From Bilabrum cf. latius (taxonomy: Eukaryota), in contig OZ237749.1 of NCBI GenBank assembly GCA_965178125.1, forward strand, positions 496,001 through 560,000: 64,000 nt of DNA, read 5' to 3'. Below are positions 37,383 to 60,662 of the stretch, one piece after another. Under the pieces are notes generated by a model. It worked only from the letters and a program-made list of their open reading frames with translations, was not told the origin of the DNA and did no database searches. Every line of letters starts with the position of its first letter. The first letter of the stretch is position 1. Both the position numbers and the translations under genes were made by a program.

Positions 37383-37392
37383 GGGGGGGGGG

Positions 37393-38040
37393 TCAATGGG
37401 GGTGTGTGGGACACCCGCAGTATAGAGGAGACGCTTCGCGCCTCTCTACTCCTCTAAGAACTTTGTAGAGGGTCCCATAGTCTATGTCTCATAAAACAGA
37501 CTACTTTATATCCCTACAAAGTAGGGGAATTTAAAGTTTAACTATTATATTATCTCCTATTATCTCTATACAGCAAACACAGAGAAGTTTTTATAAAAGT
37601 GTCAGAAGAAATTTGAAGAATCCAACGGCCTCCCAAAAACATCGCTGTGTTTGCTGTTAGAGGGAGACGGGAGCCGAAGGAACGAATTTTGCTCTGCAAA
37701 GTAGGAAAAACCAAATCAATGGGGGTGTGTGGGACACCCGCAGTATAGAGGAGACGCTTCGCGCCTCTCTACTCCTATAAGAGCTTTGTAGAGGGTCCCA
37801 TAGTCTATGTCTTATAAAACAGACTACTTTATATCCCTACAAAGTAGGGGAATTTAAAGTTTAACTTTTATATTATCTCCTATTATCTCTATACAGCAAA
37901 CACAGAGAAGTTTTTATAAAAGTGTCAGAAGAAATTTGAAGAATCCAACGGCCTTCCAAAAACATCGCTGTGTTTGCTGTTCGAGGGAGACGGGAGCCGA
38001 AGGAACGAATTTTTCCCTACAAAGTAGGCAAAAACCAAAT
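37393..38040. repeat. Tandem duplication of a about 323-bp terminal unit (37393-37715, 37716-38040)
   Basis: Both units begin TCAATGGGGGTGTGTGGGACACC and end AAAACCAAA, with few substitutions. Confidence 0.95.
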
Positions 38041-38147
38041 TATGAGTCAATACATCGGTCTGCATCAAGAGGGTCAAAAGGAGAGCGAAAGAACGTTTGG
38101 TCTTTCTCAACACGGGTTGTCGGAAGGAAGCGAAGGAAACTCCAAGG
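37923..38147 (+). repeat. Left terminal inverted repeat (part shared with right end)
   Basis: TGTCAGAAGAAATTTG...AAACTCCAAGG is the near-exact reverse complement of 60438-60662. Confidence 0.95.
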
Positions 38148-38160
38148 GTATATAGTAAGA

Positions 38161-38355
38161 ATGGAAATAAAGTTTATAAGCGATTCACTCTCTAAATCAC
38201 CCAAGGAGGCTGACACGTTTCCCAACAAGAACACGAAACGATTCTATCGCGCACTTATGACTGATTCTCTTATCAAAAAAATCAATCCTGCAATTTGGAA
38301 CAAACTCAAGATTAAATTGGAAACGTTTAGGGGGAACGAACAAGGAACGTAGTAA
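38161..38355 (+). CDS. Small virophage hypothetical protein (64 aa)
   Basis: ATG preceded by TATATAGTAAGA; ends TAG-TAA. Confidence 0.5.
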
Positions 38356-38361
38356 AACCAA

Positions 38362-39558
38362 TTAATCGTAAGCAAACATTTTCCAAGCCATTCCCAAGGC
38401 TTTCTTGTTGCTTATCCCTTGCCCCCGGAGAATAGACGCCATTTTCATCACCTTTGAACGCTTTCCCGAAGACTTCCCATTTCCAAACATTTCCACCCAC
38501 GCCCCACTGACAGGGTCATCAACCACGGAATTAATTCCCTTCATCATAGGCACTCCCACGGTCTTTGTAGCCAAATCCCAACCCTCCTTGAAATCTTTCC
38601 CAAAGTCCCTTTCTGTGTTCTACTTGCGCTTGGACTGATTTTCCCTCAAAGCGTCCCTTATTGCAGGCGGTAGGCTGTCTATCTTATTTTTTTGGTCAAG
38701 CTTTTTCCCAGAAAGCTCACCTTTTCCGAATAGTTTGGAAGTCCAACCAGCTAAATCTGTAGCGACATTGGCGATTCCCTTGAACGCAGGGCTCATCTAT
38801 TTTGCGATTTCAGCGACGGGCTACATAATGAAAGACTCTAAGGAAGACGTTAATAGCTTATTCACTTTTAGTATATCTCGGATAAACCTCTAGCAGTTCA
38901 AATCAAACGCTCTGTATTGGTAAAAATTGTATTCCCCTATGCTTTCCAGGGTGTTTCCCAACAGTTCGTTTGCGGTTACAACACGCCCTCTCAAATCCAC
39001 GTCCATCGTTTGACTGCGTTTATCCTTCTTATAGGTAAACCCAACATTAACCCTTTCATTTTTCTCAATTACTAGGGGTTTTCCAGAGCCAATATTGGCG
39101 ACAAGGTAGAGATGGAAATAGTCGCTGAATTTGTATTTCTTCTTCATCCGTTTCATCTTCCCTAAACTCAGGACATTTAACAAGCGGTTCAAACCAGACG
39201 ACAAAGGGGTTCTCACAATCTTCAGGGAGAAAATCTAACGATTTCCATACTTTTCCAAGGTTTTCCGAGTCGCGTTCGTGTGTCCCACGACGAGTCCGCC
39301 ACACATACAACCACCCCTTTGAGTCATATATGAGTCCAATGTATTGGATTGTATTTCTTTTTGTTTCCTAGGCCTTCCCCGCTTAGATTTCTTAATATCC
39401 AAAGATTTCTAGATGCTTTCCAGCATTTCCTTGGAGTATGGGTGTTTTCCCTTCCACGCCACCTAGGTTGCCTCGTTAGGTTTTCTCACGGAAAGCATTG
39501 TTTTGATAAATCCAGTGTCTTGTTTGCCTCCAGAAAGCTCGTAGAATGACTCCGCCAT
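38362..39558 (-). CDS. Conserved virophage protein, Sputnik V21-like (398 aa)
   Basis: RTPLS..LNVLSLG, YFHLYL, IEKNERVNV, YRAFDLNC*RFI (NCQ). One frame across TAGs; TAA stop. Confidence 0.65.
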
Positions 39559-39627
39559 ATTTAGTATAGATTTCCATACTTTTCCAACCTCGGGATTTAA
39601 GTATATTTTAGCAGTCTATAGTATAGA

Positions 39628-39903
39628 ATGGTATTTGAGAGAGAATTGGAAGGATTCACATTTGTTGCCCCCTCTAAATAGAAAGGGAAGAAGTATGATG
39701 TGTATGACGAAAATGGTAAGTATATTACCAGCTTCGGAAGTAATTCCCACGAGCAGTATTTTGACCGCATCGGGTATTATTCCCATTTAGACCACAAGGA
39801 CGACGACCGAATGCGACGGTTTCACCTTAGATTTAAAACCCATAGCAATCCACCGAAGCCTAGAAGCCCCCTATTCTTTAGTTCTTTCTACCTTTGGATT
39901 TAA
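39628..39903 (+). CDS. Tlr6F-like small protein found in virophages, Polinton-like viruses and NCLDVs (91 aa)
   Basis: KKYDV..YITSFG..HKDDDRMRRFHLR..SPLFFSSFYLW; one TAG; promoter motif directly upstream. Confidence 0.65.
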
Positions 39904-40023
39904 ATGCTTTCCCCTCGGTTTCCCCTCGGTTCTCGCACTGCGTGCTCCGCTTCCGACGATTTCCCATCAGTGTAGGAAAAGGGATATATGATTTCCCATT
40001 GAATAACTCTTCGTCTAAACTGC

Positions 40024-40644
40024 TCACAGACGGTTTCCCAAGTCAAAGGTTTGCCGAATGAAGTTTTCCAACTGACTAAATGATGAAAACACCGTGTAGT
40101 GTGATTTGTCTAACTGACTAATCAGACCGATTCGGCTTCTTTCCACTGCATCCAAGATATCCTTGGACTCGGATTTAATATCCTCAAACAAGGAGTGACT
40201 TGGAACACACACGAAAATACTTTCCAGCTTAAATAAATCTTTTCCAAGCTCAATATCACTACAGAAGACAATGATGCGCCGACCTTTCTTGGTTAGCCAA
40301 CGACTCTTCACATCCTCATATACTTTCTTACAGTGTCCGTAGTAAGTAAGACGGTGAGTAGACTCATCTCCACTCTCAATCATTTTGTCTAACTTTCTAA
40401 TTTCATCCGTTTTAAGGTGCGCCCTAACGACCTCGTCCAAATCCACTAGAAGTAGATTTTTATCCACGGATTCCAATTCCCTGACTAGGTGAGTCTTTCC
40501 CGCTCATCTGGGAACAACTACACACACCTTCTGACGCTAATGCGGTAATTTAGTGGCCCATCCATACACACATTTGGACCCCTGGTATGCCAAAGGCACC
40601 ATTGTTCCAATCACGGTCGCTCCAGTAAGAATCGCTGAAGCCAT
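40024..40644 (-). pseudogene. P-loop NTPase/kinase-like virophage gene with an internal TGA
   Basis: VCVVVPR[TGA]AGKTHLV with TGA at 40504-40506, followed by LLLVDLDE. Promoter motif lies upstream of ATG 40644. Confidence 0.55.
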
Positions 40645-40689
40645 TCTGTCGTTTTATATACTATAAGACAACACAATATATATATTCCA

Positions 40690-42459
40690 TCACTAGTTCA
40701 TTATTGCGAGCAACTGATTACGAGATAGTGATTTTCCTCCCGTTAATCCGGCCGCGGTCATACCTGCAGCAGTCATTCCTCGGCCTTTCTTTCCTTTCCC
40801 CATCCCTGCTAATTTAGCGACTTGCGTGCCAGTCTACACGACATCTCCTATTGTGGAAAGTAGTTTCTTGGCTTTTCCGCTCTTTACATAGTCCGCTACC
40901 TTCCTTAGAGCGTGTCTAATCTTGCGACCAAGATGCCTCCTCTTGCCACCGTGAAGACCACTGATTTGACTCTCGTAAACCGTAGGAAGTTTCTGGGCGG
41001 AAAGAACATCAGCACGACTGATAACACCCTAAGAATATTCGTATTTGGTGCCCTCAATCAGGTTTAGCACACCTTCATACAGACCCACAATTACCAGCTC
41101 CACACCACCTGCGGGGTAATCCTCTAAGTCGTTGTTCTGAACCTAAGCGGTGATGGAAATCTCGTTGGAACCGTTAGAACCATTCGTCTAATCCACATCT
41201 AGGCTCAAGTCCTTGGCGGGGTCAAGGCAGATAAGTCCACCGCTCAGAACCTTGTCGCCAAACTTTCTCATTACCCACTCTTCATACTCCTGTTCCAAGC
41301 CGTTTGTTCTGGATAAGTCCCACAGTTGCTCTCGTGATGCGTCTGCAAGAAGACCCGAACGGTTGTTCATCTGGACGGAGAGCGATTGAATCCCTAGGAA
41401 TGTGTTCCCCTTGTCCGTAGGAAGAGTGTTGGGCGACCGCCTTGCGAACACGAAAATGCGAGAAGGAACGGAATTGGAAAGTTTATTGTTGTTATTCACT
41501 AGAGTAGCGGTGGCTCCGCTTGAAATTGCGGCGCCGTGTGCCTGGACATACTGCGTCATTTCAAAGACGTCGTAGGAAACTTGCTTGGGTAGGGTAAAGC
41601 CGACCTTTGGGGTAAGCATTTCAAGCATTAGCCTGGGGTTCATTACCTTGACATCCGAGACGCTCACGGAAGCTCCCTGGGGAACATATTGAGACCAAAG
41701 GGTGTTGCGAAGATTGGCGAAGTTCACATCCAATTCAAGGGTTTCCAGACCGAATAAGGCGGGTTGCTCTTGCTTGGTTTCATAGTGGAAAGGGGGAACC
41801 ATAATACATTCGGCTACGGTGAACCTCACGGTGCGTTGTGCCGTGCCTGGACCTGCTGCGGTCTAGGCGGGAACTGGGGTATTGTCTGGTGTGTTTTCCA
41901 ACTAGAAATATCCGACACCACGTCCTGGACTCTGATACATACCGTCAGAATACGACCGAAGAGGGTTATTGGAAGCAGCGTTCATCATTGAATAACTGGG
42001 ACAATTATCACGGCGATACACGGAATTCAGGCAGTTTACCTTGTGGACTTCGTCATCAAGACAGTGATTGACAACATCCATAATCTGTGCGTTATTCTGG
42101 GTAAAGCGAACGGAATCAAGCGTTGCGGTTTGGGTGGCGATAGAACGGTTCAAGGGGTATGCCCTGGGGGCGTAAGCGTCTTCTCCAAATGGGACAATTG
42201 TTGCTGCATTCGTGTTGCTGAAGTCAATAGTTAGTTCAAAGGTTGCGGACATATACCCACGGCGACTGACACCGACCCCTGAGGGGATGGAAAGCGACCA
42301 ATTCACGCCTGAGGAATAGTCACCGGCAGACCCTGAAGGGGCGTAGGAACGGAAGGTTCGGTTGGCGTATCCAGTATCCACGGCGTAGGGTTTGGGAGTG
42401 ATGTCAAGAGAAGCGGGTTCAATCTTAACTGGCTCCAATGCGTGAATATTGAGGCTCAT
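40690..42459 (-). CDS. Virophage major capsid protein (589 aa with TAG=Gln)
   Basis: PRAYPLN, NNPL, ECIMVPPF, VPSRIFVFAR, NNRSGLLADASREQLWDLSRTNG, DPAKDLSL, YEGVL, and a Gly/basic tail after GLHGG. 7 TAGs; ends TAG-TGA. Confidence 0.92.
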
Positions 42460-42673
42460 TGTCTGTTATACTATACAGTCCGTTTTAAATTCTGATATTC
42501 CTTTCAAGAAATATCAAACAAATCATTTCCAATGCTTTCCAATGCTTTCCAATGCATTTCTCAAACATCACGTTTTCACAAAAAGTAACATAAAAATGTG
42601 AAAGTGAAGCAAACGCTTCATTCTTAGCCTTTTGGTCAAGATGCTCGCGCTTGAGCGCGCTCCGCTCTTTTGC

Positions 42674-43789
42674 TTATTCTTTTCTAAAAAGCTCAAACTT
42701 AAATTTCACCGATGCGGAACCGTGCCGAAGATATAGGGGGTGCGTCTCTCCGTAGGAATCTTTCCAATACAAATTAAACTGTAGCGTGTCAATACTAGAA
42801 GCGTTGAGAAGGTCTATGGTGTGTTCTATCTTGGGCTGATACTGGAGAACGGCCTGGTTAATCATCTGGGAATCATCTAGGACACAATCCATATCCACCA
42901 AAACACTTTCCGTGCCTCCTGTAGAACTAATGGACTAATTCGTGGAAAATCCAAATGGAGTTTTGGCCGATACCCCCTCGCTTCGCACTGGAAGACTGCT
43001 CGTTGTGAAAACGACTCCGCGGAACACCTGGAAATGTGCTAAGCTACCCCTATCCTGGGTCATCTTGAGTCTGTAAGGTGACTGGGGAATTGTTTCCGTG
43101 TATGCAATTGGTGTGAATCCATCATCATCGTTTTTCACTAAATAGTTTGTTCCTAGGGATTTGAAAAGAACGGAGGAAAACACGTCTGGGTTCGTGTCTT
43201 GGATTCGTTGGACTGGGAAACCGCTTAGAAGTTCGCCCAATGGTTCATTCAACACCAATCTGTATTTCTGGGAAGGTTGTCCTTCGTGATAGTTGGAATC
43301 AGCGAACAGGGAAAACTTTCCGTCGTCATAGGTAAGCGTTGGCGTGGTTGCTACTGCTGACTAGGAAAACTTCTGCATTGTCTCATTGAAGAGACTGACA
43401 AAGTGTTCTATCGTGTATAAATAATAATATCTTGTAAATGCCTGGGGGGACTACCAGCTCGGCTACGGTTCTGCGATTAACTAGGGTTTCCAAATGATGG
43501 GTTGCGTTGCTACAATGCTCCCGTCCTTCACGTCTTGGATGCTGATTCTGTAGATGGTCTGGTCTGGATTCTTGCTGGAATTTGTGGAAAGGTCTATATC
43601 TATGTGGGGAATCCATACGGGAATTGTATTGGTGGATATAGTGAACCGTTGGACGCTTAATTTGTAATCCTCTACATTTGCACTTAAGATTGGCTTCTTC
43701 CTCACCTCATTGTATTGGGCGGGCTGGTAGGAGTCTTCGTTATTGCGTATATTTGCGTTGATGTAGAAGTAGTCAGGTTGCTTTGACAT
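42674..43789 (-). CDS. Virophage minor capsid (penton) protein (371 aa)
   Basis: YNEVRKKPIL..DYKLSVQRF..IPVWIP, IIWKP*, C-terminal LYWKDSYGETHPLYL..KFELFRKE. 5 TAGs; TAA stop. Confidence 0.9.
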
Positions 43790-43829
43790 TTACTATACTA
43801 TCACTTTTTTAGAAAAAGTAATCCTTTTA

Positions 43830-44007
43830 ATGATCCTAACGCCGGATGGGGTTCGGTGTTGATGCCAGAGTGGGAGCGCGTGAACGTCTCGTTGGGTTCC
43901 GATGGCGGTTGCGACCGGGAAGGTGCGACCAAGCCAACGGATTGCTTGCGATGACGCGCATACCCTCTCTGTGTTCAGGAGAGGGGCGGAGATTGGGTAA
44001 TTTTTGC
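43830..44007 (+). repeat. Ngaro repeat A1 (copy A2 at 48924-49101)
   Basis: 178-bp direct repeat at offset 5094. Confidence 0.95.
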
Positions 44008-44024
44008 ACCGACTGGCAGCTTCG

Positions 44025-47000
44025 ATGCACTCATCCCCGCCACCGGTCGACGCTCTACCCGCTCATCAGCCACCCCGTGAACCTCCTGTCTCATCTTCTG
44101 CCTCACCGCAGCCTGCGTCTTCAATTGACCCAGTTTCACCGGGCGCAGGCACGGCAGTGGACTCCGCGGTCGGTCGCTCGCAACCAGTGGAGAATTTGTA
44201 GCGTGAGGCCTCTGCACCTTCAATCGCTGCAATTCGAATGCAGAATTGGTTTTCTGATGATTTCTTGGCAACGTTGACCTCGATCTTTCGCCAATCCGCG
44301 TTCATGCCGCGGTTTTGCTAGGCTGACGCGCTTCATTTGGACGCTAGCGGCCGCGATTTCGCTGCCGAACTGGCCCGTGCCCTGTTTGGTCAGGCTGTGA
44401 CGAGAGCCAAGATTGAATCGGCTATTTTCTCGTTCACGAGCCGGCTTCATGCAGCTCTGCCGATGAGCAATGCTAGTTTTGGGAAGTTTGATGCGTCCAA
44501 CTCGGAGTCGTCTGCTGCAGGCGGACGAGACAAGTAGGTACCATCTAGCGAGTTACTATGCACTATTTACTCGGCTATTTCCTTTGCTTTAGGCTGTGTG
44601 CTTGTGCGGGCTGCTTGCGTGCATTCGACGGCGTCCTTGCCGTCCTGGTTGCCGCAGGGCAGCAGCTCGTGGTAGTGTCCAGCATCACTAGTGCCCGATT
44701 GGAAAACCTTAGGGCAGGTTCGCAATGATTTTCTTCGTTTAGTTAGTGCTTCCGGGGCATCATCTGCATCGGCGTCCAGACTAGAGGTGGTGTTTGCCGC
44801 TGTGTGTGTGATACCACGCGGAAGTTCAGCTTTTGAGATGCTCTCATCCCATGCTTGGCGCCATACAGGCGAACGCTGTGACGTTGAGATTCGTGACCTT
44901 GTTGGGAATGAGATTCCATCGTGCTCTTCTGGCGACTGCATGCGTCTCCTACAATTGCTGCATCCGTGGGCCACTGAGGCATGCAGATCAGGCGAACCTG
45001 GCCTCGTGCGCGGACTGCTACAGGGAGTCCAGGCTGACATGCAGGCGCCGTCCCGTCGAGCAGCACTGTCCCGTCACTTCGACCCCCGCGGGGGCAGTGG
45101 AGGCCGGGGCAGTGGAGGCGGGGGCAGTGGAGGCTCCAGGCGCAGCGGGGGTGACAGCGACCAGCCCAGTGCCGATCGTGGCGGAGGTCGACACCGTCGA
45201 GGCCGTGGACGTGGCGGTGCAGGCCAGCAAGGTGGCCAGCACCAGCGTGCGGACCGGCAGGACGGGGGTTCCGCCAGGAAGTCCAAGGAGCCTTCACCTG
45301 ACCCCCCCCCACGAGGTACGTCACGTCAGAGCCAGCCCAGCACTCCAACACCAACACTGCCGCAGGGGCGTACGCAGACTACCACCACATCGGACGCGTG
45401 TGCTGCTTCCACACCACCTGTCACGTCAACGCCCGCGCTTCACCCAGTCCTGGTGGCCCTAGCGCGCCCTAAGCGACCGCAGCGGCCGCCCACGGCGTCA
45501 TCCACGAGGCTGCCAGGTAGGACGGACATCTCTCCAGCATTCGTTGACTGGGCATATCCAGCTCCGGATCCAAGCCATGAGTGGGCAGGGACGACAGCAC
45601 CCTCCGTCGAGGACTTCATACAGCGAAAGGACGATCACCAGCGTACCAGAGAATGTCCCGGCGAATTCGTGGAGGCTCCAGCTGCGACGTGGGACCGTGA
45701 GCGGATCCACCTGAAGGTTCACGACGACCCGCTGGCATTCACGCCACGCAAGTACTTCGACAAGGTGCCTCGCTAGACTGCAACACTGCGGACCCGGCGG
45801 GAGGTTCTGTTTGGCGGCCGCACACCGAGGAAGGCCCCGTCCCTTGCCGAGTTTAAAGCCCTCCCACGAGTCGAGCGTGTACTGGCAGCACTGAACTATG
45901 GTTGCCCCCTAGCCATCGTGGACTAGGTGCCCAAAGAGCACGATCTAGACTACAAGGACCGTAAGCTGTCTCCGGAAGAAAAGTGGGAGATCGCCTGCGA
46001 GATCGGGCGCTCCATGCGGGCTGGCGAGCGTGACTTCGTGTCACCCAAAGATTTCGACACAGCCCGGGCCCGGCCGCTGGTGATCCCCAAGAAGGACTCG
46101 ACAAAGCTACGGTTCCTTCAGGACTCCTCACTCAAGGTGAACGGCCAGCGTACCGGTCTGAACAAGGCCATCGACTACAGTGCAGCCACGCCTGTGCAGC
46201 AGACGAGCAGCATGGACGTGCTGCGCTCGGCAGCCGCAGCAGTTCGATCCTGCCCCAAGCGTGCCAGCGGATACGTCGTCGACATTTCCTCGTACTTTCG
46301 GGTCCTGCCGGTGGCAGTGGAGGATCTCCAATACAACCTGATCAAGCTGCCCGACGGGCGCATCGTGCAAGATTTCAGGCTCTCTATGGGCAGCTCATCA
46401 TCTCCCGCATTCGCAACTACGATCAGTTCGGCTTTGGCCCAAGCCCTCGAGGAGCAGTCCATTGGCAGGGCCATGCGACCCGGACGGAGACACAAGCAGA
46501 AGCAACGACGCCGGAAGCAGCAGCACGCCAACGCCCAATCCAGCACGACGGACCAGGCGCCCCAGGCGAACTCGTCAGCAACGTCCACCCCGCCTGCCGC
46601 TAGCACGACAACGGGACATGTCAAGACGGCCCAAGACTAGTCCCGCCATTGGTAGGTCGAAAATGAGGTGTTTGTAGATGACTTTGCCTGCCTCGGCGGA
46701 GATCACGAAGTCGATGCATGGGCAATTCGAGCCATGGGGCAGCTGGACTCCACAAACTTCCCCGTCAGCATCTCGAAAGCATTGAAGCAAGGGGCCCCAG
46801 CCCCGGTGTTCGAGTACTTGGGCCTCACCTACGACTTGATCAAACACGAGGTGCGGTGCCCTAAGGACAAGGCCAACGACGTCCTGCGCAGACTGCACGA
46901 GGCACTCACGACGAAGGGGATGCTGCTGTCTAGCTTTGAGACCTTGGTCGGCAAGTTGTCCTTCCTGTCGGGCGCACTTTATGGTATGCGCGGTGCTCTA

Positions 47001-51168: not shown

Positions 51169-51627
51169 TTAAAAAGTGATATTCTATTCCTTAACATATT
51201 TACTTGCTTGTGGAAGAGGCATTCCAGTCTGCTCCATTACCGCCTTTACCACTCTATTCCTCCGTTTCATTTTCTCGCTTATTTTTCTCTTACGCCCTTC
51301 CGTGTGCCTTTTGGGTTTCCTAGAACCGCCTAGAGATAATCCACCAATGTTTGATAAATCTTCCACTGGGGTTCTGAGGCTGTCAAAACTGCCGACTTGA
51401 AAAGGTGTTTTCTCTTCCTTTCCAGCCAGTTTCTTCCAAATCTGTTTTCCCTTGGCGACTACGCCTTGTCCCAAGGTTCTAAATATGAATTGCATTGCCT
51501 TGGCATCATCTCTCCATTTTCCGCCTTGGAGATTGGGGGACACTTGGGCGATTCTCCCGTTGGCGTCCTTCTATTTCTGCTACACTAGCTACGCTGTCCG
51601 CTTCCTAATGTATTCGTCAATATCCAT
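51169..51627 (-). CDS. Basic putative virion core/DNA-binding protein (152 aa)
   Basis: LQGG/IGG/LGG sites, a K/R-rich stretch, RNRVVKAVMEQTGMPLPQASKYVKE; promoter motif upstream. Confidence 0.55.
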
Positions 51628-51668
51628 TATACTATACTATAACTTTTTATTCACTCTATAGAAAGCAA

Positions 51669-51827
51669 ATGGAAACCATACGAGAACTTCAAGAAGACAA
51701 AAGACTCCTATAGGGATACTGTAAACATATGTCGGAAAAGTATAAGTGGGTGATGTGGGTATAGGACTGTTTCCAACACATTTTCTGCATAAGGGGGTTG
51801 AATCCGCGCACGCTTATTAAAAAGTAA
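51669..51827 (+). CDS. Small virophage hypothetical protein (52 aa)
   Basis: ATG after TCTATAG; two TAGs; TAA stop. Confidence 0.4.
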
Positions 51828-51841
51828 TCTTATAGTAAACT

Positions 51842-53194: not shown

Positions 53195-53245
53195 AGCTTT
53201 TTCACACTCTATACTTAAATCTACTGCTATACTATATAGCACAGA

Positions 53246-53458
53246 ATGACGGAAGAATGGAGTTACAACAAATATTATTACGAGAAAAATAAGGAACGCT
53301 TAAAGAAGAAGGTGCAGTGTGGGTGTGGCTCCAAAGTAGCACACTACAACTTATAGCACCACAGGAATACCAAGAAACACAAAGCGTGGGAAACCGATGA
53401 AACCAAGCAGGAAATCCAACGACTCAAGGACGAGTTAGAATGCTTGAAACAAGAATAA
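53246..53458 (+). CDS. Zinc-ribbon/C2H2-like small protein (70 aa)
   Basis: YYEKNKE..KVQCGCGS..HHRNTKKH, the Zn-ribbon pattern known from virophages. Confidence 0.7.
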
Positions 53459-53658
53459 AAGAGCTTTTTAGGAAAATGCTGTTCCGTCAGCAAACTACGG
53501 AAGCGGACGCCGAAGGCGGAGAACCGTGCCTCAGCCAAAAAGAATTGAGAGAGTCCTTAAGTGGTTTTGGTTAAGCAAGATGCTCGGCCTTTGGCCTCCG
53601 CTCTTTTCATTCTTTTTGAAAGGATAATCTTAAAAGCTTACTATATATATATTAACGA

Positions 53659-54648
53659 ATGTCCGTCTCTAATCTTTTAGTGCCGAACACATATAGGTTG
53701 TATTGTCAAAGTATTACACCCGTTGAAGGTGGAGGAGGTGGCGGAACACCGAGTCTATCAAGTGTTCTACAAGCCGGAAATAATGCTGGAAATACTACAA
53801 TTACAAATGTTGCTCTTCCAGTCAATCTCCAAGATGTTGCTACAAAGCAATACGTGGATTCCACAAGTGGCGGAGGAGGAGGGGGAGGAACACCAACTCT
53901 AACTGCTGTGCTGACCCAAGGCGGAAATGCGGGAAACCTTACCATATCAAATTTGGGGTCTCTACACACATCAGGAAGAGGCGACATTGAGTCAAACAAA
54001 GGGACGATGGGGAGCTTAACACTCACAGGTGAGATTTACGGAGACGGGCAAAGAGAACAACCAACCATCACACTTCAAACCATACCAAGTCCTCTCAAGA
54101 ACCAAATAGAGGGAAGAAATACGAATGGAACTCCAGGAGACAACTTCATTCAATTCTGGATTGATAATGGTAGTGGAAATCCGGTAGGCACGGCACAGAT
54201 ACGTGGAGATGGAACTATGTTCGTATAGAATGGTGTTGTTCCTTTCACAGGAGCACACGTGGGAACGCTGGGAAGCGGTGCAAAACCAAAGATTGGGTAG
54301 GTTATGTCAGTAAGAACTGCGACGGTAAACGATGTGTCCAATTGCGAGTTTTCGTTCAAAGTGTGTGACCACACAAGCGTTCCATTTGGAGTCTATAGCG
54401 GAGAGGGGAAAAGTGGGGAAATAAAGGTTAATTCCGTGGGAGAAGGCGCTGTCCTTTGTTTGCGAGACGACAGCGTTCCTATTCTGGCTGGGGACTATCT
54501 GGCTATTTCCAGAACGAAAAAAGGATACGTGGAAAAGTCCAAGAGTTCTCAATTTTCTAAATGGGTCGTTGGGAAAGCAATCGTGGATGTTGAGTGGGAC
54601 GACGAGGAGGAAGAAAAGTTAATTCCAGTGGTGTATTATTGCGGATAA
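53659..54648 (+). CDS. Putative fiber/receptor-binding protein with C-terminal chaperone-like domain (329 aa)
   Basis: Repeated GGGGGGTPxLxxVLxxGxNAG, DVATKQYVD, PFTGAH, NSVGEG..GDYL..SRTKKGY..VGKA. 2 TAGs. Confidence 0.65.
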
Positions 54649-54682
54649 ACGAAAAAAGCAGATACTATAGTATACACGCAAT

Positions 54683-55207
54683 ATGAGTCTTTCTAACATC
54701 CTTCAAGACAACAGTTTTGCTCTGAAGTGTGCTTCTCTCACGACTGAAGCAATCTATGGACTACAAGGAAAGGATTTGACGATTCAAACCACAAGGGCGG
54801 ATTCTGGCGACGATGGATATGCTGTGGTGCTGAAAGCGTCAAATTCTACCACTACTGAAACGTGTGATATTCGGTTTGGAAATGGCGAGCTTGGAACAGC
54901 CTCGGCTCGTATTTACGCAAGGCAAGGCGGACAAACTCAACAAGATGACATAGATGGGTCGTATTTCCTTGGTGGGTATTGTGTTCTTTCCAAAGGGGGG
55001 GCGGGTCTTGGTCTTCCAGTAAGGACTGCGACCTAGATTGGAGACTCCACGGATACTTGTAATAAAACAGGTCGTCCAGAAGACACAAAACGAGCGGGTG
55101 TGCTTCTGTTTAATTCTACAGATTCTATTGTGATGGTTTCCGTAGGTGATGACTCTACGAGTGCTTGGAAGGAAGTGGGTGGAACAACTACCATAACACC
55201 ATCATAA
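54683..55207 (+). CDS. Second putative fiber/spike protein (174 aa)
   Basis: N-terminus MSLSNILQDNSFALKCASLT parallels that of the 53659 gene; beta-rich; one TAG. Confidence 0.55.
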
Positions 55208-55301
55208 TGTATCTCCAAAGAACCCTAAGGGCTTTTTGTAGAATACCTATCCGGTAGTTCAATACAATCACTATTGTAAGGAAATCATTCTATTGACTCC
55301 T

Positions 55302-57147
55302 TCACTATAGGAACACCTTTTTCTTCGCGTGAGTAATCACACACTCCCCCTGAGTCTCCAATTTCCACTCTCCAAGGTTTTCCGATAGTTTCAAGGGGAT
55401 TTCCATATCGCTCACAAACCCGTCCGTATTCACATAATGCATACTCTCTAGGTATGGTTCTATGACCTAGGAAAGTTTCCGCCGTCCAAAGGCTGTAAGG
55501 AAAGGGCCCAGACGAGCAAAACAAGTTCTATATGTGTGTGTTTGAGTCGCTAGAATGCCTTTCACCCTTCTTCCACCGTCCTATATGAAAGCATCTTTTA
55601 TCGTCCTAAAGTCTACCACTTCGTCGGTCGCTGGAAATGGTCTTTACTACCTAATTCCTTTGACACAACGCACCCCATACGGAATTAAGCAGTTGTTTTG
55701 CTGTTTTAAATCCTTTCTTTTTATATCCATAGAGTCGCTCCACCAAACCCTTGAAGAGGCTGACTGCCTTGATTCGCTTGTCTTTTTCGTAGATAAGGGC
55801 GTTTGCCTGTCCGTCCTGAATGATGGAAAAGGTCGCTCCCGTTTCCAAAGCTCGCTAAATATCGTGGTGAGTCCAATACTGGTTGTTCCGTGGTTGAATA
55901 AGCTTGGGATTTAGGTGTTCCACCTTTACCCTGTAAATCCCGAATTTCCAACCAAACTCCTTTGGGGTCTGGGAAAGCGTCTGGAAATCTCCGGAAAGGA
56001 CTGGAAACTACATCTGTGACTTCAACATACTTGGATAGAAGCTATTAATGTCATATTGGTAGGCTTTCTCCAGTTTAGTGTCGTTGTTTGCCCAGTTCAG
56101 TCCGCCTCCAGACGCCTTGGAAATCCACTCCGCCTCTTTTCGCCCCAAAGGCTCGGCTGGGAAAAGCTTGGAAAACTTGGAAATGTAGTTTCGCACAAAT
56201 AGAGACGCTTTGTAACCATATTTAGATATATCTATATACCCTCCAGTCTCTTGAGAGAGTGCCTCGGTGTTCTCGTGGATGCGCCTCCAAGTCGGTTCTA
56301 GGTCTTCCTCTACAGACACTTTCCAATAACACTTGTGCTTGTGGTTTTGTTCCAGTCGTGTTTCTACGTGTCTAGACGACCCATCAAACATTACATACTT
56401 GCTTTCCGCCCTTTTCCAGTAGGTCAGTAGCTGAACAGACCCTTTCTAGGGAAAACACATTAAATCCTTCTGGGATTCTGGGGAAATGAACTCGTAGTGT
56501 CCGTTGGTGAGGGACATATTCGCCAACGGGTCGTAAGACTTTCCAGATGTGTAGGAAAAATCTCCAGTAAGGTGAATGCGGATTCTCAGGAAATCCTCTA
56601 CCTCAGGAATTCTATTATAGTGGATTGGCTCGTTTCGCCCAAGGTTCAGATGGGACTTTAGTTGTGCAGGTGAAATCCTATGGAAACCGCTCTTAGTCTT
56701 TCCATTGACCTTTTTGTTCCCTCTAAATCCTACTTGGAACGGAAACGCCTTCTTGAGGGCGTTATACAGACAGTCATTATTCTCGTCCTTTCCACCCCTC
56801 GGATTGTCCTTGGGAAGCATTAGAAGTTCAAACGTGTTTAGTCTGCGGTGTTCCTATTCATCTACGTCCTCGTCCTCATATCCCTTCCACAGTGAGGTAG
56901 TTTCCTTCAGGTCTTCCGTGGTTATCCAAGCACTCCTTGTCCGCCACCCTTCCTCCACAAAATTGAGGTTAATCTTGAACTTGTATCCGTCAAAGGGATT
57001 CTCTCCGTCCTCGTCGTAGTCCTTGATAAAATCCATCACATCTTTTACCGTGATTAGCTCCTTCGCTTGAAACCTTACGCTCCAAATTGGAACGCCGTTG
57101 AGTCTCAAGTTGGTCTTCTCGGGTTCGCCGAAATCAATCTCAACCAT
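55302..57147 (-). CDS. Protein-primed family B DNA polymerase with one frameshift (between 55643 and about 55520)
   Basis: YDINSFYPSML (A) and KQLLNSVWG (B) are in one frame; ARLGPFLTAFGR..YVNTDGF (C) is in the +1 frame; ends TAG-TGA. Confidence 0.85.
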
Positions 57148-57239
57148 TCTAGAGTATATAATATACTATAGACTACCAAATTATACTTAATGTATGAACG
57201 AGAAGCAACGCTTCTACGCTTGTCCTTTTCTGAAAAGGA

Positions 57240-58922
57240 TTACGCGTCGTCAATTTTGCACAGAGACAGTTTCAGAGACTTCCCACGCTTTCCACGGGGT
57301 TTTGCCTTGGGTTTTGGTTGGTTTTCCTTCATCCACGCGGTGATTGCTATGCACGACTCGGTTACCAGTTTCTTCTGGGTTCTTCTGTGAAAAAGTTGGT
57401 TGTCGTCCATTTCCCTCTCCAGTTCCAACTCTTCTATGCGTTCCGTTTGCTCCTGTAGTTTCTTCTACATTTCCTATAGTTGTTCTCGTAGCAGTTCCAC
57501 CTCGGTCTTGGCTTTCTCTACCTCTGCTTCTTGGCGGAGAGCTTTGAACTTCGTCCTAAACCCTTCCAGTAAGTCTTTGTGCTTTACGTTGAACTCTTGC
57601 TTTCTCTATGAGTTCATCGTGGAATACACGCCTACTTCCGCCAACTGTTCCTTAATCTTCGGCGTGGAGAGGTTCTTGATTTGTCCCTTCAGTTCGTCCT
57701 TTAGGTAGTTGCGGAAGGCCATCACGGAAATGTGGAAATCTTTTCCCTCGTCCAACCACTCTTTCTTTAGCGTCCGCAGGATAGGGTGCGCCCCTTGTAG
57801 AATTCCCTAATGGAAATTCTAGGATTTTGGAGCGTATAGTCCCTTGAACTCGGGTGAGTCGTCGTAGATTTTCGCGAGGTATAGGAAGAACGCCCTCGCC
57901 ACCTCTTTGCTCTCCGTTGCTTCCTTGAGTTTCTTAAAGTATTCCTTGTCACCTTTCCTAGATGTATTGACATCCAACACGCAATATCTGCGGATTTCCT
58001 CGGTGATTTTGATGGGTGCGTCGTTCGTGTCTATGATAAGGTTGAAGGTGTTGGGACGGCTCTCGGTCTTGACGAATTTCTCATTACAGGAAAAGGTCTT
58101 CTCGGTGATAAGATTGCGTAGGGTCGCCTACATAGCGTTCCATCTAGTGTTGGAAGCTTTTGGAATCTCGTTGAAGTTCACAAGTAGTTTTCCATCTAGG
58201 ATAGAGTTGAAGGCGTCGGGCTGAAGCATAGCGTTTGTGAGCGTCTGGAGCGTCAGGGTGTATCCAAGCAGTTTTCTCATAAGGAACGTAATGATGATAG
58301 ACTTACCAGTTCCCTACGGAGACTTAAGATACAGGGCGGTCTGGAGTTTTTCCCCGCCTACAATCACGTGTGCCAGCCACTTCATCACGAAGTCAAACTG
58401 GGTGTCGTCCTCGCTCGTCCAGACCTTGTGGATATGTTCGGAAATACGAATCACGCCTTCACGTGCGTCTTCCGACACGTCTTCTAGGTTTCCGCAGTTT
58501 CCCCTCGTAATCAGGGGTATTCCCATAAGGTTAATCGTCTGCTTCTCGTAGTCTACGGTGGGTGCGTTGAATCGTCTCACCACCCTAAAGACATCTGTGT
58601 TCTCGTTAAAGAACCAATCACGAGCAGACCAATCCTTCACTCTCTTATTGTTTACCATTCGGTAGATGCAATGTCCCCCAATTAGGTAATTCTCGCTGAT
58701 GTTTCGGTTCGCCAGGAACTACCAGACTGATTTCTAAGGATTCTCGTCGGAACTGTTCTAGCGGTTCAGTTCATCCCCCTAGAGGAAATACACGCCTCCA
58801 CCTTGGTCGTGGGTGCGGTAGAAGTATTGCTGAATGTATTTGATACAATCCTCTTGATTTCCAGTGTCGCAAAGTTGCTTGAGTGTTCTGGCTGAATAGG
58901 CTGCGGTTGGCATCTGAGACAT
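57240..58922 (-). CDS. Superfamily 3 (D5/NrS-1-like) helicase (560 aa)
   Basis: FVMKWLAH, LYLKSP*GTGKS, FNS..GKLLVNFNE, LRNLIT, NLIIDTN, RRY. 11 TAGs; TAA stop. Confidence 0.88.
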
Positions 58923-59109
58923 TTTCTGTTGGTTATACTATAGACTACCAAAATATACTTAAGTGCTGACGCACAGAGTAGTCTGAGACGGATGCATCAA
59001 TTTTCCATAGTTTTCCAACGATTGAAAACCCACCGACTGTCTCCCTACTATAGGTAGTGAGTTAGCCTTAAGTAATGATTTTTTTGAACTCATCTTCATT
59101 TTTTGCTAA

Positions 59110-60237
59110 TTACGTCAGGTCTATCGGGGCTATCCCAAACTCCTCTGGAAGTTGTTTTATGGCGTCTTCTAGGGTTTCCCACGTCCAATCCTTTTCGTTT
59201 GGAAGACCGTCCCATTCCACCTAAACCCTGGTTGGCTCTCGGGTATGGACTTTCTTCATATCCTTTTTCCGGATTGCCTTGGTGTTGTGGAGCTCATCCT
59301 CGTCAATTATCTATAGTTCTTCCTTTGTGTAGGCTACTTTGTGTTTCTAATCCACGACATACAAAGGAGGTTGCCCTGGTCGCAGAAGCACCTTGGTAAT
59401 TTGTCGTTCGGTCGGGTCATAACGTAAATCGCTCGCTCTAAATGAACCCATTAATTTCTTGGAGAGTTTGTAGGCCTCCCTGGGTTCTTCCAACGGAATC
59501 CTAACAAGTGTTCCCTTTTCCAAGATATCGCAAGCCTTTCCCCTACAGTGGGTCGCTCCGAACTGAGTCGTGGGAATTGGTGGATTTTCTTTGAGTTTCT
59601 CTTTCTGGAATTCGTTGTAATCATTGACAATCGTAGGTATTAAATCCACCCAACGTCGCTCTACTTTTCCCTTGGCTATTTCCTCTACATTCTGGACGGA
59701 ATTGATGACGATTCCAAACAGTTTGTTCAAGTTTTCCACCACGGCCTGTTGTTTGTGGCGTCCTGGTTTGTTTCGGCGCACATAAACAGGCTTTTCCTAT
59801 TCTCGTAAATGCCTTGCTAATTCGTTAAATTCATTTCCGTTGTCTATTTCCAGTCTCACAGTGGGTTGCTAGACATTTCCCCGAATGAATATCTTGAGCG
59901 CTTTTTCATAGGTTTCTTTCTGGGTTTTCTTCTATAGGGGTTCTGCATCAATTAGTTTATTGTGTAAATCCACGGCTGTCAGCAGGTATTTATTTCCTTG
60001 GTCATTCGGAAGTTGCAGTAAATCCATCTGGACAACTGCGTTCGGTTGTGGAACACTTACCTTGGGCCTGTTCTTGCCCTTGGGTTTCTTTGGTCGTTTC
60101 ATTAAATTGCGGATTCTGGAGTCCTAAGGTATGTTGACTCCTTGAAGAACATATTGGAGAACATTTGGGTATTCCAAGATGCTCGGGCTTTGCCCTCCGC
60201 TCTTTTCATTCTTTTGGAAAGGATAACGGATTTCCAT
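59110..60237 (-). CDS. Retroviral-type (rve) DDE integrase with C-terminal chromodomain-like region (375 aa)
   Basis: QMDL, YLLTAVD, IDNGNEF, AVVENLNK, YTKEEL*I, VEWDGLPNEKDWTWE. 7 TAGs; TAA stop. Confidence 0.9.
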
Positions 60238-60437
60238 TCTTAGTATAGGCTTGTAGGAAAAGGGTGGGAGAAGACGGAAGCAGTGCGGGCCCCGCGCGGA
60301 AAGCACTTGGATTTCTTTGGAAAAGGTGGGATTTCTTGGGAAACACCTGGAGAACCTTGGGTAACACCTGGGGAACCTTGGGGAACACCTGGGAAACCGA
60401 CGGAAGCGGAGTCCGCAGGTAGAGAACCGAGGGAAAA

Positions 60438-60662
60438 CCTTGGAGTTTCCTTCGCTTCCTTCCGACAACCCGTGTTGAGAAAGACCAAACGTTCTTTCGC
60501 TCTCCTTTTGACCCTCTTGATGCAGACCGATGTATTGACTCATAATTTGGTTTTTGCCTACTTTGTAGGGCAAAATTCGTTCCTTCGGCTCCCGTCTCCC
60601 TCTAACAGCAAACACAGCGATGTTTTTGGAAGGCCGTTGGATTCTTCAAATTTCTTCTGACA
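60438..60662 (-). repeat. Right terminal inverted repeat (apparently truncated)
   Basis: Reverse complement of 37923-38147; homology stops abruptly after ...CTTCTGACA. Confidence 0.95.

What the first reader, a model, noticed from the sequence alone, without database searches (positions are those of the whole stretch)
37383..60662. Endogenous virophage written in a non-standard genetic code (TAG=Gln)
Seen: every core gene is broken by in-frame TAG and becomes full length when TAG is read through (MCP 7 TAGs, penton 5, protease 3, ATPase 5, helicase 11, integrase 7, pPolB 8). TAGs fall at expected Gln sites: helicase P-loop SP*GTGKS (58314), NC*RF (38890), integrase EEL*, ATPase DDCL*TGRH. Known: virophages use host ribosomes and need a co-infecting giant virus. 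Inference: this is a code-adapted virophage locked to TAG=Gln hosts, which implies a helper giant virus compatible with the same code. Standard ORF callers would miss or shred such viruses. I am not aware of a described recoded virophage but cannot check the literature.
Basis: partly seen in the sequence, partly recalled or inferred. Interest (0 to 1): 0.95.

Follow-up and report, generated by a model that had tools for sequence, protein, structure and literature searches.

The report
Integrated virophage written with TAG=glutamine
A small virus that normally parasitises giant viruses sits integrated in a protist chromosome, and both it and its host read the stop codon TAG as glutamine, so ordinary gene finders cut its genes and those of its relatives in metagenomes into fragments.

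Summary
Window 37393-60662 is a 23-kb, low-GC element with terminal inverted repeats. It encodes Sputnik-type major capsid and penton proteins, a protease that folds like Sputnik V9, a P-loop ATPase, a helicase, pPolB and an rve integrase. The twelve ORFs carry 65 in-frame TAG. pPolB also has a one-base frameshift.

TAG encodes glutamine. In 75 informative columns against metagenomic relatives, Gln is the commonest partner (25). It beats the next residue, Lys, by 23.6 log-likelihood units. Twelve TAG positions are shared with a relative of about 70% MCP identity.

This is not decay. Host genes in the flanks (ABCG, PRORP, SF1) and a GC-rich Ngaro-like retrotransposon inserted in the element also carry in-frame TAG. 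The host nuclear code is therefore UAG=Gln, with UAA and UGA as stops.

Five metagenome contigs hold relatives that use the same code, three of them syntenic over several genes. Two IMG/VR scans found none. The closest database proteins are short fragments, and the one I could trace is bounded by TAG.

A helper giant virus is only inferred, from a conserved promoter-like motif (TATAGTATA).

There is a precedent: polinton-like insertions in Streblomastix use table 6. I rate this a new variant of a known kind.

The parts
37393..38147 (.). Left terminal region. A 323-nt tandem duplication (37393-37692 and 37716-38015) leads into the left terminal inverted repeat, 37923-38147.
   Evidence: D1 has 2 copies at 98% identity. 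I1 is a 225-nt inverted repeat, 99% complementary to 60438-60662. I2 is a partial second TIR copy at 37600-37715. Sequence read.
38362..39561 (-). Conserved virophage gene of unknown function. The ORF runs to 39786, but the homologues begin at Met76. It has 8 TAG in the long ORF, including NC[TAG]RF.
   Evidence: 58% identical over 285 aa to a 310-aa ORF in L001, L002 and L004. No Pfam family.
39628..39903 (+). Small ORF of 91 aa directly behind a TATAGTATA motif.
   Evidence: Function unknown; homology not tested.
40690..42459 (-). Major capsid protein, 589 aa, 7 TAG.
   Evidence: Pfam Sputnik_MCP_1st 2.4e-23 and MCP_V20_C 9.7e-25. Sputnik V20 (3j26) 5.1e-26; mavirus MCP (6g43) 0.0019. 69-70% identity to L001-L004.
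42674..43789 (-). Penton (minor capsid) protein, 371 aa, 5 TAG.
   Evidence: Pfam V18-19 7.7e-13. 62-63% identity to L001, L002 and L004.
43830..49256 (+). GC-rich (about 60%) Ngaro-like tyrosine-recombinase retrotransposon inserted between the penton and protease genes. Repeats are A1 43830-44007, B1 48795-48924, A2 48924-49101 and B2 49127-49256. Its ORFs are 44025-48560 (1,511 aa, 12 TAG) and 47759-48754 (331 aa, 4 TAG).
   Evidence: both repeat pairs are 100% identical. RVT_3 (RNase H-like) 4.1e-6; Phage_integrase 6.2e-5, below the Pfam cut-off. TAG counts. GC step.
49389..49919 (+). Adenain-like (clan CE) cysteine protease, 176 aa, 3 TAG. His64, Gln125 and Cys134 are invariant. The presumed catalytic Asp79 is not invariant (Asn in 3 of 12 rows).
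   Evidence: AlphaFold model pLDDT 88.3. Best viral match Sputnik V9: TM 0.86, E 3.8e-15, 34% identity. PDB matches are adenovirus proteases and CE-clan deubiquitinases, E 7e-5 to 1e-3. Alignment.
50168..51079 (+). P-loop ATPase, presumed packaging ATPase, 303 aa, 5 TAG.
   Evidence: Only sub-threshold AAA_22/AAA_16 hits, 5e-4 to 7e-4. Walker A APSGAGKS is visible in the sequence. 74% identity over 303 of 303 residues to L002/L004. Its role is inferred from position and family.
51169..51627 (-). ORF of 152 aa, 4 TAG, function unknown.
   Evidence: 37% identity to L002/L004. One TAG is CAG in the copies of run X6.
51842..53194 (+). ORF of 450 aa, 5 TAG, function unknown.
   Evidence: 35% identity over about 490 columns to L002/L004.
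53659..55207 (+). Two ORFs: 53659-54648 (329 aa, 2 TAG, Gly-rich, fibre-like by composition only) and 54683-55207 (174 aa, 1 TAG).
   Evidence: The first is 49-53% identical to L002/L004. No Pfam family for either.
55308..57147 (-). [quoted passage not shown]
   Evidence: Pfam DNA_pol_B_2 2.1e-8. tblastn with the L002 homologue splits into frame -1 (residues 10-517) and frame -2 (491-624). Frames printed.
57240..58922 (-). D5/VapE-like helicase, 560 aa, 11 TAG.
   Evidence: Pfam DUF5906 2.6e-15 and VapE-like 1.9e-6. 58% identity to the L002 fragment.
59110..60543 (-). rve (retroviral-type) integrase ORF, 7 TAG. The true start is probably internal.
   Evidence: Pfam rve 3.6e-10, residues 165-240. 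The N-terminal part overlaps the TIR and a repeated 61-nt element.
60438..60662 (.). Right terminal inverted repeat. It is shorter than in sister copies.
   Evidence: I1. In runs X1, X2 and X4, contigs run on past 60662 with letters that mirror the sequence just outside the left TIR (table 7).
39617..58942 (.). Ten exact copies of TATAGTATA. Seven lie 0-18 nt upstream of the ATG of an ORF on the same strand. The copy at 50152 lies 7 nt upstream of the ATPase ATG but on the opposite strand. 51641 overlaps 51636. 53236 has no ORF behind it.
   Evidence: 10 matches, all inside the element, 0.04 expected; positions relative to start codons; 8 matches in L002, 0.10 expected.
8175..11060 (+). Host ABCG/PDR-type transporter exon with 5 in-frame TAG. 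It stands for the host ORFs that show the host code.
   Evidence: Pfam ABC2_membrane 2.9e-62 and ABC_tran 2.1e-28. Three TAGs lie inside the conserved nucleotide-binding domain and align to polar residues (T, E, D/N) of yeast Cdr1/Pdr5.

Best explanation
Window 37393-60662 is an endogenous virophage. It has a Sputnik-type capsid module plus pPolB, a helicase and an rve integrase, and it is bounded by terminal inverted repeats. It is integrated in the nuclear genome of a GC-rich eukaryote whose ribosomes read UAG as glutamine and keep UAA and UGA as stops.

The virophage is translated by host ribosomes, and its lineage has long evolved under that code. About 27% of its Gln codons are TAG, spread over every gene. 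Its proteins could therefore not be made in a standard-code cell.

By analogy with mavirus and the EMALEs of Cafeteria, the integrated copy probably stays silent until a giant virus infects the cell. The giant virus's transcription machinery would then recognise the conserved TATAGTATA motif in front of the virophage genes. That step is inferred, not shown.

This particular copy is recent (TIRs 99% alike) but probably impaired. Its pPolB is frameshifted, its right TIR is shortened, and a Ngaro-like retrotransposon has landed between the penton and protease genes.
For: Virophage identity:
- MCP: Pfam 1e-23 to 1e-24; Sputnik V20 5e-26.
- Penton: V18/19, 8e-13.
- Protease: fold closest to Sputnik V9, TM 0.86.
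- rve, pPolB and DUF5906 helicase domains.
- TIR of 225 nt, 99% complementary.
- GC 0.41-0.47 against about 0.55-0.70 in the upstream host flank.

TAG is a sense codon:
- 65 TAG in 12 ORFs that align end to end with homologues.

TAG means Gln:
- Of 47 window TAG columns aligned to L002, 12 are TAG and 10 are Gln. Of 47 L002 TAG columns, 13 are window Gln and 12 are TAG.
- In 75 informative columns (TAG-TAG pairs and gaps excluded), Gln 25, Lys 11, Thr 7.
- Gln beats Lys by 23.6 nats.
- TAG columns pair with Gln as often (34%) as true CAA/CAG columns do (38%).

The host shares the code:
- 62 TAG in 9,125 codons of 11 long flank ORFs, including ABCG, PRORP and SF1.
- The host-like Ngaro element has 12 + 4 TAG.

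The lineage is alive, not decaying:
- Relatives in 5 metagenome contigs have ORFs that open only with TAG as sense. Three of them (L001, L002, L004) are syntenic over several genes.
- L002 has 53 TAG in 3,811 codons, 26% of its Gln codons.
- Sister copies occur in 4 sequencing runs. Among the 40 best-supported differences, 35 are coding: 25 synonymous (2 are TAG>CAG) and 10 non-synonymous.

Promoter-like motif.
Against: - There is no RNA or protein evidence. No RNA run was listed among the holders, and that blank says nothing either way.
- No tRNA-Gln(CUA) or eRF1 gene lies in the window (0 tRNAs). No whole genome was held, so the decoding machinery is unseen.
- About two thirds of informative TAG columns pair with residues other than Gln. 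That matches the behaviour of ordinary Gln columns at this divergence, but it leaves the assignment statistical.
- No giant-virus sequence was found anywhere. A scan of IMG/VR with the extended promoter 15-mer gave 51 single hits, and nothing stood out.
- This copy has a frameshifted polymerase and a truncated TIR, so it may be inactive.
- The ATPase has only sub-threshold family hits.
- The host lineage was not identified.
Confidence: 0.88

Rival explanations
1. The element is a dead, standard-code virophage whose genes were broken after insertion by C-to-T mutation (CAG to TAG).
For: TAG is one transition away from CAG. This copy does carry a real lesion, the pPolB frameshift.
Against: - C>T decay should also turn CAA into TAA and CGA into TGA. 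The genes hold 111 CAA and 38 CGA, yet no TAA or TGA lies inside any full-length homologous frame. P about 6e-22.
- 12 TAG positions are shared with a relative of only 65-70% nucleotide identity.
- The relative has its own TAGs at window Gln positions (13 of 47).
- Host genes carry TAG too.
- The listed differences between copies are mostly synonymous, 25 of 35.
Confidence: 0.01
2. The virus has a code of its own, as recoded crAss-like and other phages do. TAG would be read as Gln only late in infection through a virus-supplied suppressor tRNA, while the host uses the standard code.
For: TAG=Gln recoding specific to a virus is established for phages (PMC9523058, abstract seen in the listing). 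The virophage uses TAG for Gln about twice as often as the host ORFs do, 27% against 14%.
Against: - Host ORFs with strong family matches (ABCG 3e-62, PRORP, SF1) need TAG read-through to stay open, 62 TAG in 9,125 codons.
- The GC-rich retrotransposon needs it too.
- No tRNA gene lies in the element or in L001-L005.
Confidence: 0.03
3. TAG is a sense codon but stands for another residue (Lys, Glu, Leu, Ser or Tyr, as in other UAG reassignments), or it is ambiguous (stop or sense by context).
For: Lys is the second commonest partner, 11 of 75 columns. UAG=Leu, Ser, Glu and others exist in other eukaryotes (PMC11687900, passages). The last MCP codon before TGA is TAG, so context-dependent termination cannot be excluded.
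Against: Gln beats Lys by 23.6 nats, Glu by 28.8 and Ser by 39.9. TAG>CAG changes occur between copies. Leu and Tyr columns are 72-74% conserved at this divergence, whereas TAG columns pair with Leu in only 2 of 75.
Confidence: 0.05
4. The element is a Polinton/Maverick-type self-replicating transposon or an autonomous polinton-like virus that needs no giant virus. It carries pPolB and rve, the defining Polinton pair.
For: pPolB and an rve integrase are present. Many copies exist in several genomes. No giant-virus sequence was seen.
Against: The MCP, penton and protease are of the Sputnik/virophage type, not the Polinton type. Mavirus-type virophages carry the same pPolB and rve pair (PMC8547959, passages). 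A short conserved motif directly upstream of most genes is what virophages show when they depend on a giant virus's transcription. Dependence on a helper cannot be settled from sequence.
Confidence: 0.15

Closest known systems
Endogenous mavirus-like elements (EMALEs) of Cafeteria burkhardae, with Ngaro retrotransposons inserted in them (Hackl et al. 2021, PMC8547959; passages read)
   Same: Both are low-GC virophage genomes of about 20 kb with TIRs, an rve integrase and pPolB, integrated in a GC-rich flagellate-type genome. Both exist as multiple diverged copies. Both have type-specific promoter motifs upstream of their ORFs. Both are interrupted by GC-rich YR retrotransposons of about 5-6 kb with the A1-[ORFs]-B1A2B2 repeat layout.
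   Different: The paper does not mention a genetic code (0 occurrences of 'genetic code'). Here every gene holds TAG=Gln codons. The capsid protein here is much closer to Sputnik V20 (5e-26) than to the mavirus MCP (0.0019). The promoter motif is TATAGTATA, not the TCTA motif reported for mavirus-type (type 4) EMALEs.
Polinton-like endogenous viral elements of Streblomastix strix that use translation table 6 (Bellas et al. 2023, PMC10120064; passages read)
   Same: An integrated double-jelly-roll virus of a protist is written in the host's non-standard nuclear code. The authors took this as a sign of long association between virus and host.
   Different: That case is TAA and TAG = Gln (table 6) in an oxymonad, and its MCPs belong to a parabasalid-type polinton-like group. 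Here only TAG is reassigned (TAA ends 8 of 12 genes), the capsid module is of the virophage type, and relatives with the same code are shown in environmental metagenomes.
Sputnik virophage (Pfam families Sputnik_MCP_1st, MCP_V20_C and V18-19; PDB 3j26; V9 protease model in BFVD)
   Same: The capsid, penton and protease are recognisably homologous.
   Different: Sequence identity is low. The replication and integration genes are pPolB, a D5-like helicase and rve. By recall, Sputnik instead has a tyrosine integrase and a primase-helicase. The genetic code differs, and this element is integrated.
Nuclear codes with UAG=Gln but UAA=stop: Iotanema spirale, Protocruzia tuzeti and two phyllopharyngean ciliate lineages (PMC11687900, passages; PMC9161772, passages)
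   Same: The same reassignment pattern is seen in the host ORFs and in the element.
   Different: The host here has a GC-rich (about 60%) chromosome with many large genes on one 64-kb stretch. From my recall of those organisms, not from any test here, I would not expect that of them. None of the passages read mentions viruses (0 occurrences of 'virus' in PMC11687900). The host's identity is not established.

Membership tests
Virophages (class Maveriviricetes; the four-gene morphogenetic core) | Double jelly-roll major capsid protein of the virophage type | tested here: met
   Pfam Sputnik_MCP_1st 2.4e-23 and MCP_V20_C 9.7e-25, both above the cut-off. Sputnik V20 5.1e-26. 2,209 library hits at E<=0.001.
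Virophages (class Maveriviricetes; the four-gene morphogenetic core) | Penton (minor capsid) protein | tested here: met
   Pfam V18-19 7.7e-13, 48.4 bits against a cut-off of 27.
Virophages (class Maveriviricetes; the four-gene morphogenetic core) | Adenain-like cysteine maturation protease | tested here: met
   No Pfam hit. The model (pLDDT 88.3) matches Sputnik V9 at TM 0.86, E 3.8e-15, and adenovirus proteases in the PDB. His, Gln and Cys are invariant in 12 sequences; the presumed Asp is Asn in 3 of them.
Virophages (class Maveriviricetes; the four-gene morphogenetic core) | FtsK/HerA-type packaging ATPase | tested here: inconclusive
   A Walker A motif is present and generic AAA hits are sub-threshold, 5e-4. 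The gene is conserved and syntenic next to the protease in L002/L004. No FtsK/HerA-specific match was obtained.
Virophages (class Maveriviricetes; the four-gene morphogenetic core) | Replication depends on a co-infecting giant virus | not testable with these tools
   Only indirect evidence: a conserved motif upstream of genes. No giant-virus sequence was found.
Mavirus-like / Polinton-like replication-integration module | Protein-primed PolB plus an rve integrase, flanked by TIRs | tested here: met
   DNA_pol_B_2 2.1e-8 and rve 3.6e-10. TIR of 225 nt at 99%. pPolB is frameshifted in this copy.
NCBI translation table 15 pattern (TAG=Gln; TAA and TGA stop) | TAG in frame at positions where homologues have Gln | tested here: met
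   25 of 75 informative columns are Gln. The log-likelihood lead over the next residue is 23.6 nats. TAG<->CAG changes occur between copies.
NCBI translation table 15 pattern (TAG=Gln; TAA and TGA stop) | TAA and TGA still terminate | tested here: met
   8 of 12 genes end in TAA and 4 in TGA. The ATPase and MCP ends coincide with the ends of their homologues. Making TAA or TGA sense opens far fewer long ORFs than making TAG sense in L001-L005.
NCBI translation table 15 pattern (TAG=Gln; TAA and TGA stop) | Cognate tRNA-Gln(CUA) and an altered eRF1 in the host | not testable with these tools
   No tRNA lies in the window and no genome is held.
Ngaro (DIRS-order) YR retrotransposons | Split direct repeats A1-[ORFs]-B1A2B2 | tested here: met
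   43830-44007 = 48924-49101 and 48795-48924 = 49127-49256, both 100% identical. The layout is as described in PMC8547959.
Ngaro (DIRS-order) YR retrotransposons | Reverse transcriptase, RNase H and a tyrosine recombinase | tested here: inconclusive
   RVT_3 (RNase H-like) 4.1e-6 is above the cut-off. Phage_integrase 6.2e-5 is below it (23.3 against 27.1 bits). No RT family appeared at E<=0.01.

The most novel reading that the evidence does not exclude
A complete three-level system runs on the rare UAG=Gln, UAA=stop code: a protist host, a giant virus and a virophage. The host is a GC-rich eukaryote lineage in which this code has not been described. Its giant virus is also written in, or at least tolerant of, that code. 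The virophage clade is widespread in nature (one lineage recurs in four metagenome datasets) yet is missing from virus catalogues, because standard-code pipelines shred it.
Probability: 0.45. Interest if true: 0.85.

Novelty: new variant of a known kind. Interest (0 to 1): 0.72.

Why it matters
- It extends virophages to a host with a reassigned stop codon. My searches found no such case in print: for virophages, and for giant viruses with reassigned nuclear codes.
- Because the virophage depends on host translation, the recoding acts as a host-range barrier. It also predicts that a giant virus exists that works under the same code.
- It exposes a blind spot in current resources. Two pattern-limited IMG/VR scans found none of this clade. 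In the 1.8-billion-protein library its six closest MCP members exist only as fragments, and the one traced is cut at TAG.
- It points to a eukaryote with the rare 'UAG only' reassignment in a GC-rich genome. That would bear on how UAG and UAA become uncoupled.
- It repeats, in an apparently different host, the virophage-plus-Ngaro nesting known from Cafeteria.

Tried and rejected
- Whole genome: none is held for this window, so other copies, tRNAs and eRF1 could not be searched.
- Host identity: the PPDK search returned only about 45%-identical, mostly bacterial proteins. The SF1 search returned nothing at E<=1e-10. Both are uninformative.
- Host TAG columns against solved structures: the single PPDK TAG lies in the unaligned C-terminal tail. 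The three ABCG TAGs in the nucleotide-binding domain align to T, E and D/N of yeast transporters. These are polar but not diagnostic.
- IMG/VR: the single-protein scan and the alignment-based MCP scan found no relative. These scans are limited by their patterns.
- The extended promoter 15-mer gave 51 single hits in IMG/VR. I read them as chance. None showed motif clustering or looked like a helper virus.
- The first protease model, from 3 sequences, was poor (pLDDT 45.9) and was not used.
- phmmer of the protease against the PDB gave only spurious summed WD40-repeat hits. The profile search gave non-significant CE-clan hits, E about 0.7.
- Sequencing runs: no RNA holder was listed, so expression is untested.
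- Read laying printed 40 of about 1,600 differences, so most TAG positions could not be checked copy by copy.
- No tRNA genes in the window or in L001-L005.
- A target-site duplication could not be called, because the right TIR is truncated in this copy.
- Supplementary files of the papers were not consulted. They might list codes or elements that bear on the novelty claim.

Full report
**Observation**

With TAG read as a residue, the stretch 38.3-60.6 kb resolves into twelve sizeable ORFs. pPolB has 7 in its open frame. The four cited motifs lie at the cited coordinates. In all there are 65 TAG in 4,675 codons.

One correction is needed. pPolB is not made whole by read-through alone. A tblastn with the homologue from locus L002 splits into two frames near 55.63 kb. 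The last ~110 residues, which include YVNTDGF, lie in the other frame. I cannot tell whether this is a real lesion or an assembly error.

**What the element is**

GC falls from about 0.55-0.70 in the upstream host flank to 0.41-0.47 inside the element. A 225-nt inverted repeat, 99% complementary, bounds it (37923-38147 and 60438-60662). The left end also carries a 323-nt tandem duplication that starts at 37393. Contigs of sister copies run on past 60662 with letters that mirror the sequence outside the left TIR. The right TIR of this copy is therefore shortened (table 7).

- The MCP matches the two Sputnik MCP Pfam families (2.4e-23 and 9.7e-25) and Sputnik V20 in the PDB (5.1e-26). The mavirus MCP matches only at 0.0019.
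- The penton matches Sputnik V18/19 at 7.7e-13.
- The protease has no Pfam hit. A model built on 12 sequences (pLDDT 88.3) superposes on Sputnik V9 (TM 0.86, E 3.8e-15) and on adenovirus proteases. His64, Gln125 and Cys134 are invariant in the alignment.
- The helicase (DUF5906, 2.6e-15), the rve integrase (3.6e-10) and pPolB (2.1e-8) complete a mavirus-like replication and integration set.
- The ATPase has a Walker A motif but only sub-threshold AAA hits.

**Is TAG a sense codon, and which residue does it encode?**

The library search with the MCP gave 2,209 hits at E<=0.001. The best full-length hit is 32% identical. The six closest hits (50-77% identical) are only 133-270 aa long.

A scan of the metagenome collection with an alignment of the overlapping region returned five loci, out of 110 stretches that matched a pattern. 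In all five, long ORFs appear only when TAG is sense. In L002, ORF residues in frames of at least 150 aa rise from 971 to 4,597 with TAG sense. They reach only 1,875 with TAA sense and 2,981 with TGA sense.

L001, L002 and L004 carry stretches of the same gene order as the window. L002 spans helicase, pPolB, the fibre-like ORF, two unknown ORFs, ATPase, protease, penton, MCP and a further unknown ORF. Amino-acid identity runs from 35% to 74%. L003 and L005 hold only part of the MCP.

The column tallies against L002 are as follows.

| Direction | Columns | TAG | Gln | Next most common |
|---|---|---|---|---|
| Window TAG against L002 | 47 | 12 | 10 | Lys 4, Thr 4 |
| L002 TAG against window | 47 | 12 | 13 | Lys 6 |

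I pooled L002 and L005 in both directions and left out TAG-TAG pairs and gaps. That gives 75 informative columns: Gln 25, Lys 11, Thr 7, Asn 5. A BLOSUM62-based likelihood ranks Gln first, 23.6 nats ahead of Lys and 28.8 ahead of Glu. As a control, true CAA/CAG columns are conserved as Gln in 38% of cases and TAG columns pair with Gln in 34%.

Database protein P0121 is encoded exactly in L005. A TAG lies one codon before its start and another directly after its end.

**Decay is excluded**

C-to-T decay would also produce TAA and TGA. The genes hold 111 CAA and 38 CGA codons, yet none of the frames that align end to end with homologues contains either stop. The probability is about 6e-22.

TAG positions are shared across lineages that are only 65-70% identical in DNA.

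Contigs from four public runs, laid on 49150-60900, show both exact and diverged copies. Of the 40 best-supported differences listed (about 1,556 more were not shown), 35 are coding:
- 25 are synonymous, including two TAG>CAG changes;
- 10 are non-synonymous, including one TAG>AAG change.

**The host shares the code**

Eleven long ORFs in the flanks hold 62 TAG in 9,125 codons. These ORFs were delimited by TAA/TGA, so their lack of TAA and TGA is true by construction. They include an ABCG transporter (ABC2_membrane 2.9e-62), a PRORP and splicing factor 1. Three ABCG TAGs lie in the nucleotide-binding domain opposite polar residues of yeast Cdr1/Pdr5.

A 5.4-kb, 60%-GC insertion between the penton and protease genes has the A1-[ORFs]-B1A2B2 repeat layout of Ngaro retrotransposons. 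Both repeat pairs are 100% identical. It has an RNase H-like domain and a sub-threshold tyrosine recombinase domain. Its two ORFs carry 12 and 4 TAG.

The recoding therefore belongs to the host nucleus, and the virus follows it. TAG makes up 27% of Gln codons in the element, 26% in L002 and 14% in the host ORFs.

**How it probably works**

The nonamer TATAGTATA occurs 10 times in the 64-kb window, all inside the element, against 0.04 expected. It occurs 8 times in L002 against 0.10 expected. Most copies sit within about 20 nt upstream of a start codon. The helicase and pPolB genes share a longer version of the motif in both the window and L002.

In mavirus and the Cafeteria EMALEs, such motifs match giant-virus promoters and are held to mediate reactivation (PMC8547959, passages). 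By analogy, I infer the following course:
1. The element integrates through its rve integrase.
2. It stays silent until a giant virus infects the cell.
3. The giant virus's transcription machinery then transcribes it.
4. Host ribosomes that read UAG as Gln translate it.

Steps 1-3 are inference. Step 4 follows from the sequence evidence above. No giant-virus sequence was found.

**Relatives in nature**

L001, L002, L003 and L004 come from four differently numbered metagenome records and are 95-99.9% identical in DNA, so they are one lineage. L005 is a separate lineage. Fragments P0001-P0004 and P0007 are not encoded in any of the five loci, so further lineages exist. Two IMG/VR scans found no member of the clade.

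**Comparison with what is known**

- The closest system is the EMALE-plus-Ngaro association in Cafeteria burkhardae (PMC8547959, passages). That paper mentions no code change.
- Bellas et al. 2023 report that polinton-like insertions in Streblomastix strix use table 6, like their host (PMC10120064, passages). Viral insertions written in a host's variant code are therefore not new as a kind.
- Paez-Espino et al. 2019 noted an ochre-suppressor tRNA in one virophage clade as a hint of host stop-codon reassignment (PMC6905037, passage).
- UAG-only=Gln nuclear codes are described for Iotanema spirale, Protocruzia tuzeti and two phyllopharyngean ciliate lineages (PMC11687900, passages).
- My searches for a recoded virophage and for giant viruses together with reassigned nuclear codes found none. 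Supplements were closed, and most subscription journals are not in the library.

**Verdict**

The new points are:
- a virophage-type capsid module under the TAG-only code;
- proof that the host shares the code;
- relatives in metagenomes that use the same code, with database proteins of the clade present only as fragments.

The helper giant virus and the host's identity remain open.

Noticed in passing
window 43830-49256: A GC-rich Ngaro-like YR retrotransposon with 100%-identical split direct repeats is nested inside the virophage. This is the same nesting reported for Cafeteria EMALEs. Its ORFs also use TAG as a sense codon.
   Followed up: partly
window 51080-51140, 53579-53639, 60178-60226; also 42652-42685 and 49256-49289: A conserved element of about 50-60 nt containing a short GC-rich palindrome recurs at gene ends and intergenic sites, in both orientations (I3, I4, D5, I6). 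It may be a transcript-end or regulatory signal. One copy lies inside the annotated N-terminal part of the integrase ORF, which argues for a later start codon.
   Followed up: no
window 61257-63998 (+): An open-ended ORF of 914 aa with 9 in-frame TAG and no Pfam family sits in a stretch of intermediate GC (0.48-0.55) just outside the right TIR. It could be a host gene or another mobile element.
   Followed up: partly
window 37393-38015 and 60662: The left end has a 323-nt tandem duplication that includes part of the TIR. The right TIR is about 200 nt shorter than in sister copies seen in runs X1, X2 and X4.
   Followed up: partly
window 49909-50086: Three copies of a 48-nt direct repeat (98% and 65% identity to the reference copy) lie between the protease stop and the ATPase start (D4). 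Sister copies skip about 170-184 nt here (table 5).
   Followed up: no
window 29289-32420: The best library matches of the host pyruvate phosphate dikinase are about 45%-identical proteins. Where a source names them, they are of bacteria from the Bacteroidota/Rhodothermus group. No closer eukaryotic protein appeared. The candidate list was truncated, so this is only a hint of bacterial ancestry.
   Followed up: no
L039 (IMGVR_UViG_3300012667_000289) and L007 (IMGVR_UViG_3300017648_000055): Among the hits to the 15-mer, which I read as chance hits, these two IMG/VR loci gain much ORF coverage when TAG is read as sense (0.25 to 0.75 and 0.53 to 0.90). They are probably TAG-recoded phages unrelated to this finding.
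   Followed up: no
run X6 (organism C), laid on window 49150-60900: A different labelled organism holds many contigs 85-95% alike to the element: 539 pieces laid, most under 95% identity. The virophage family is thus multi-copy in at least one further labelled organism.
   Followed up: partly
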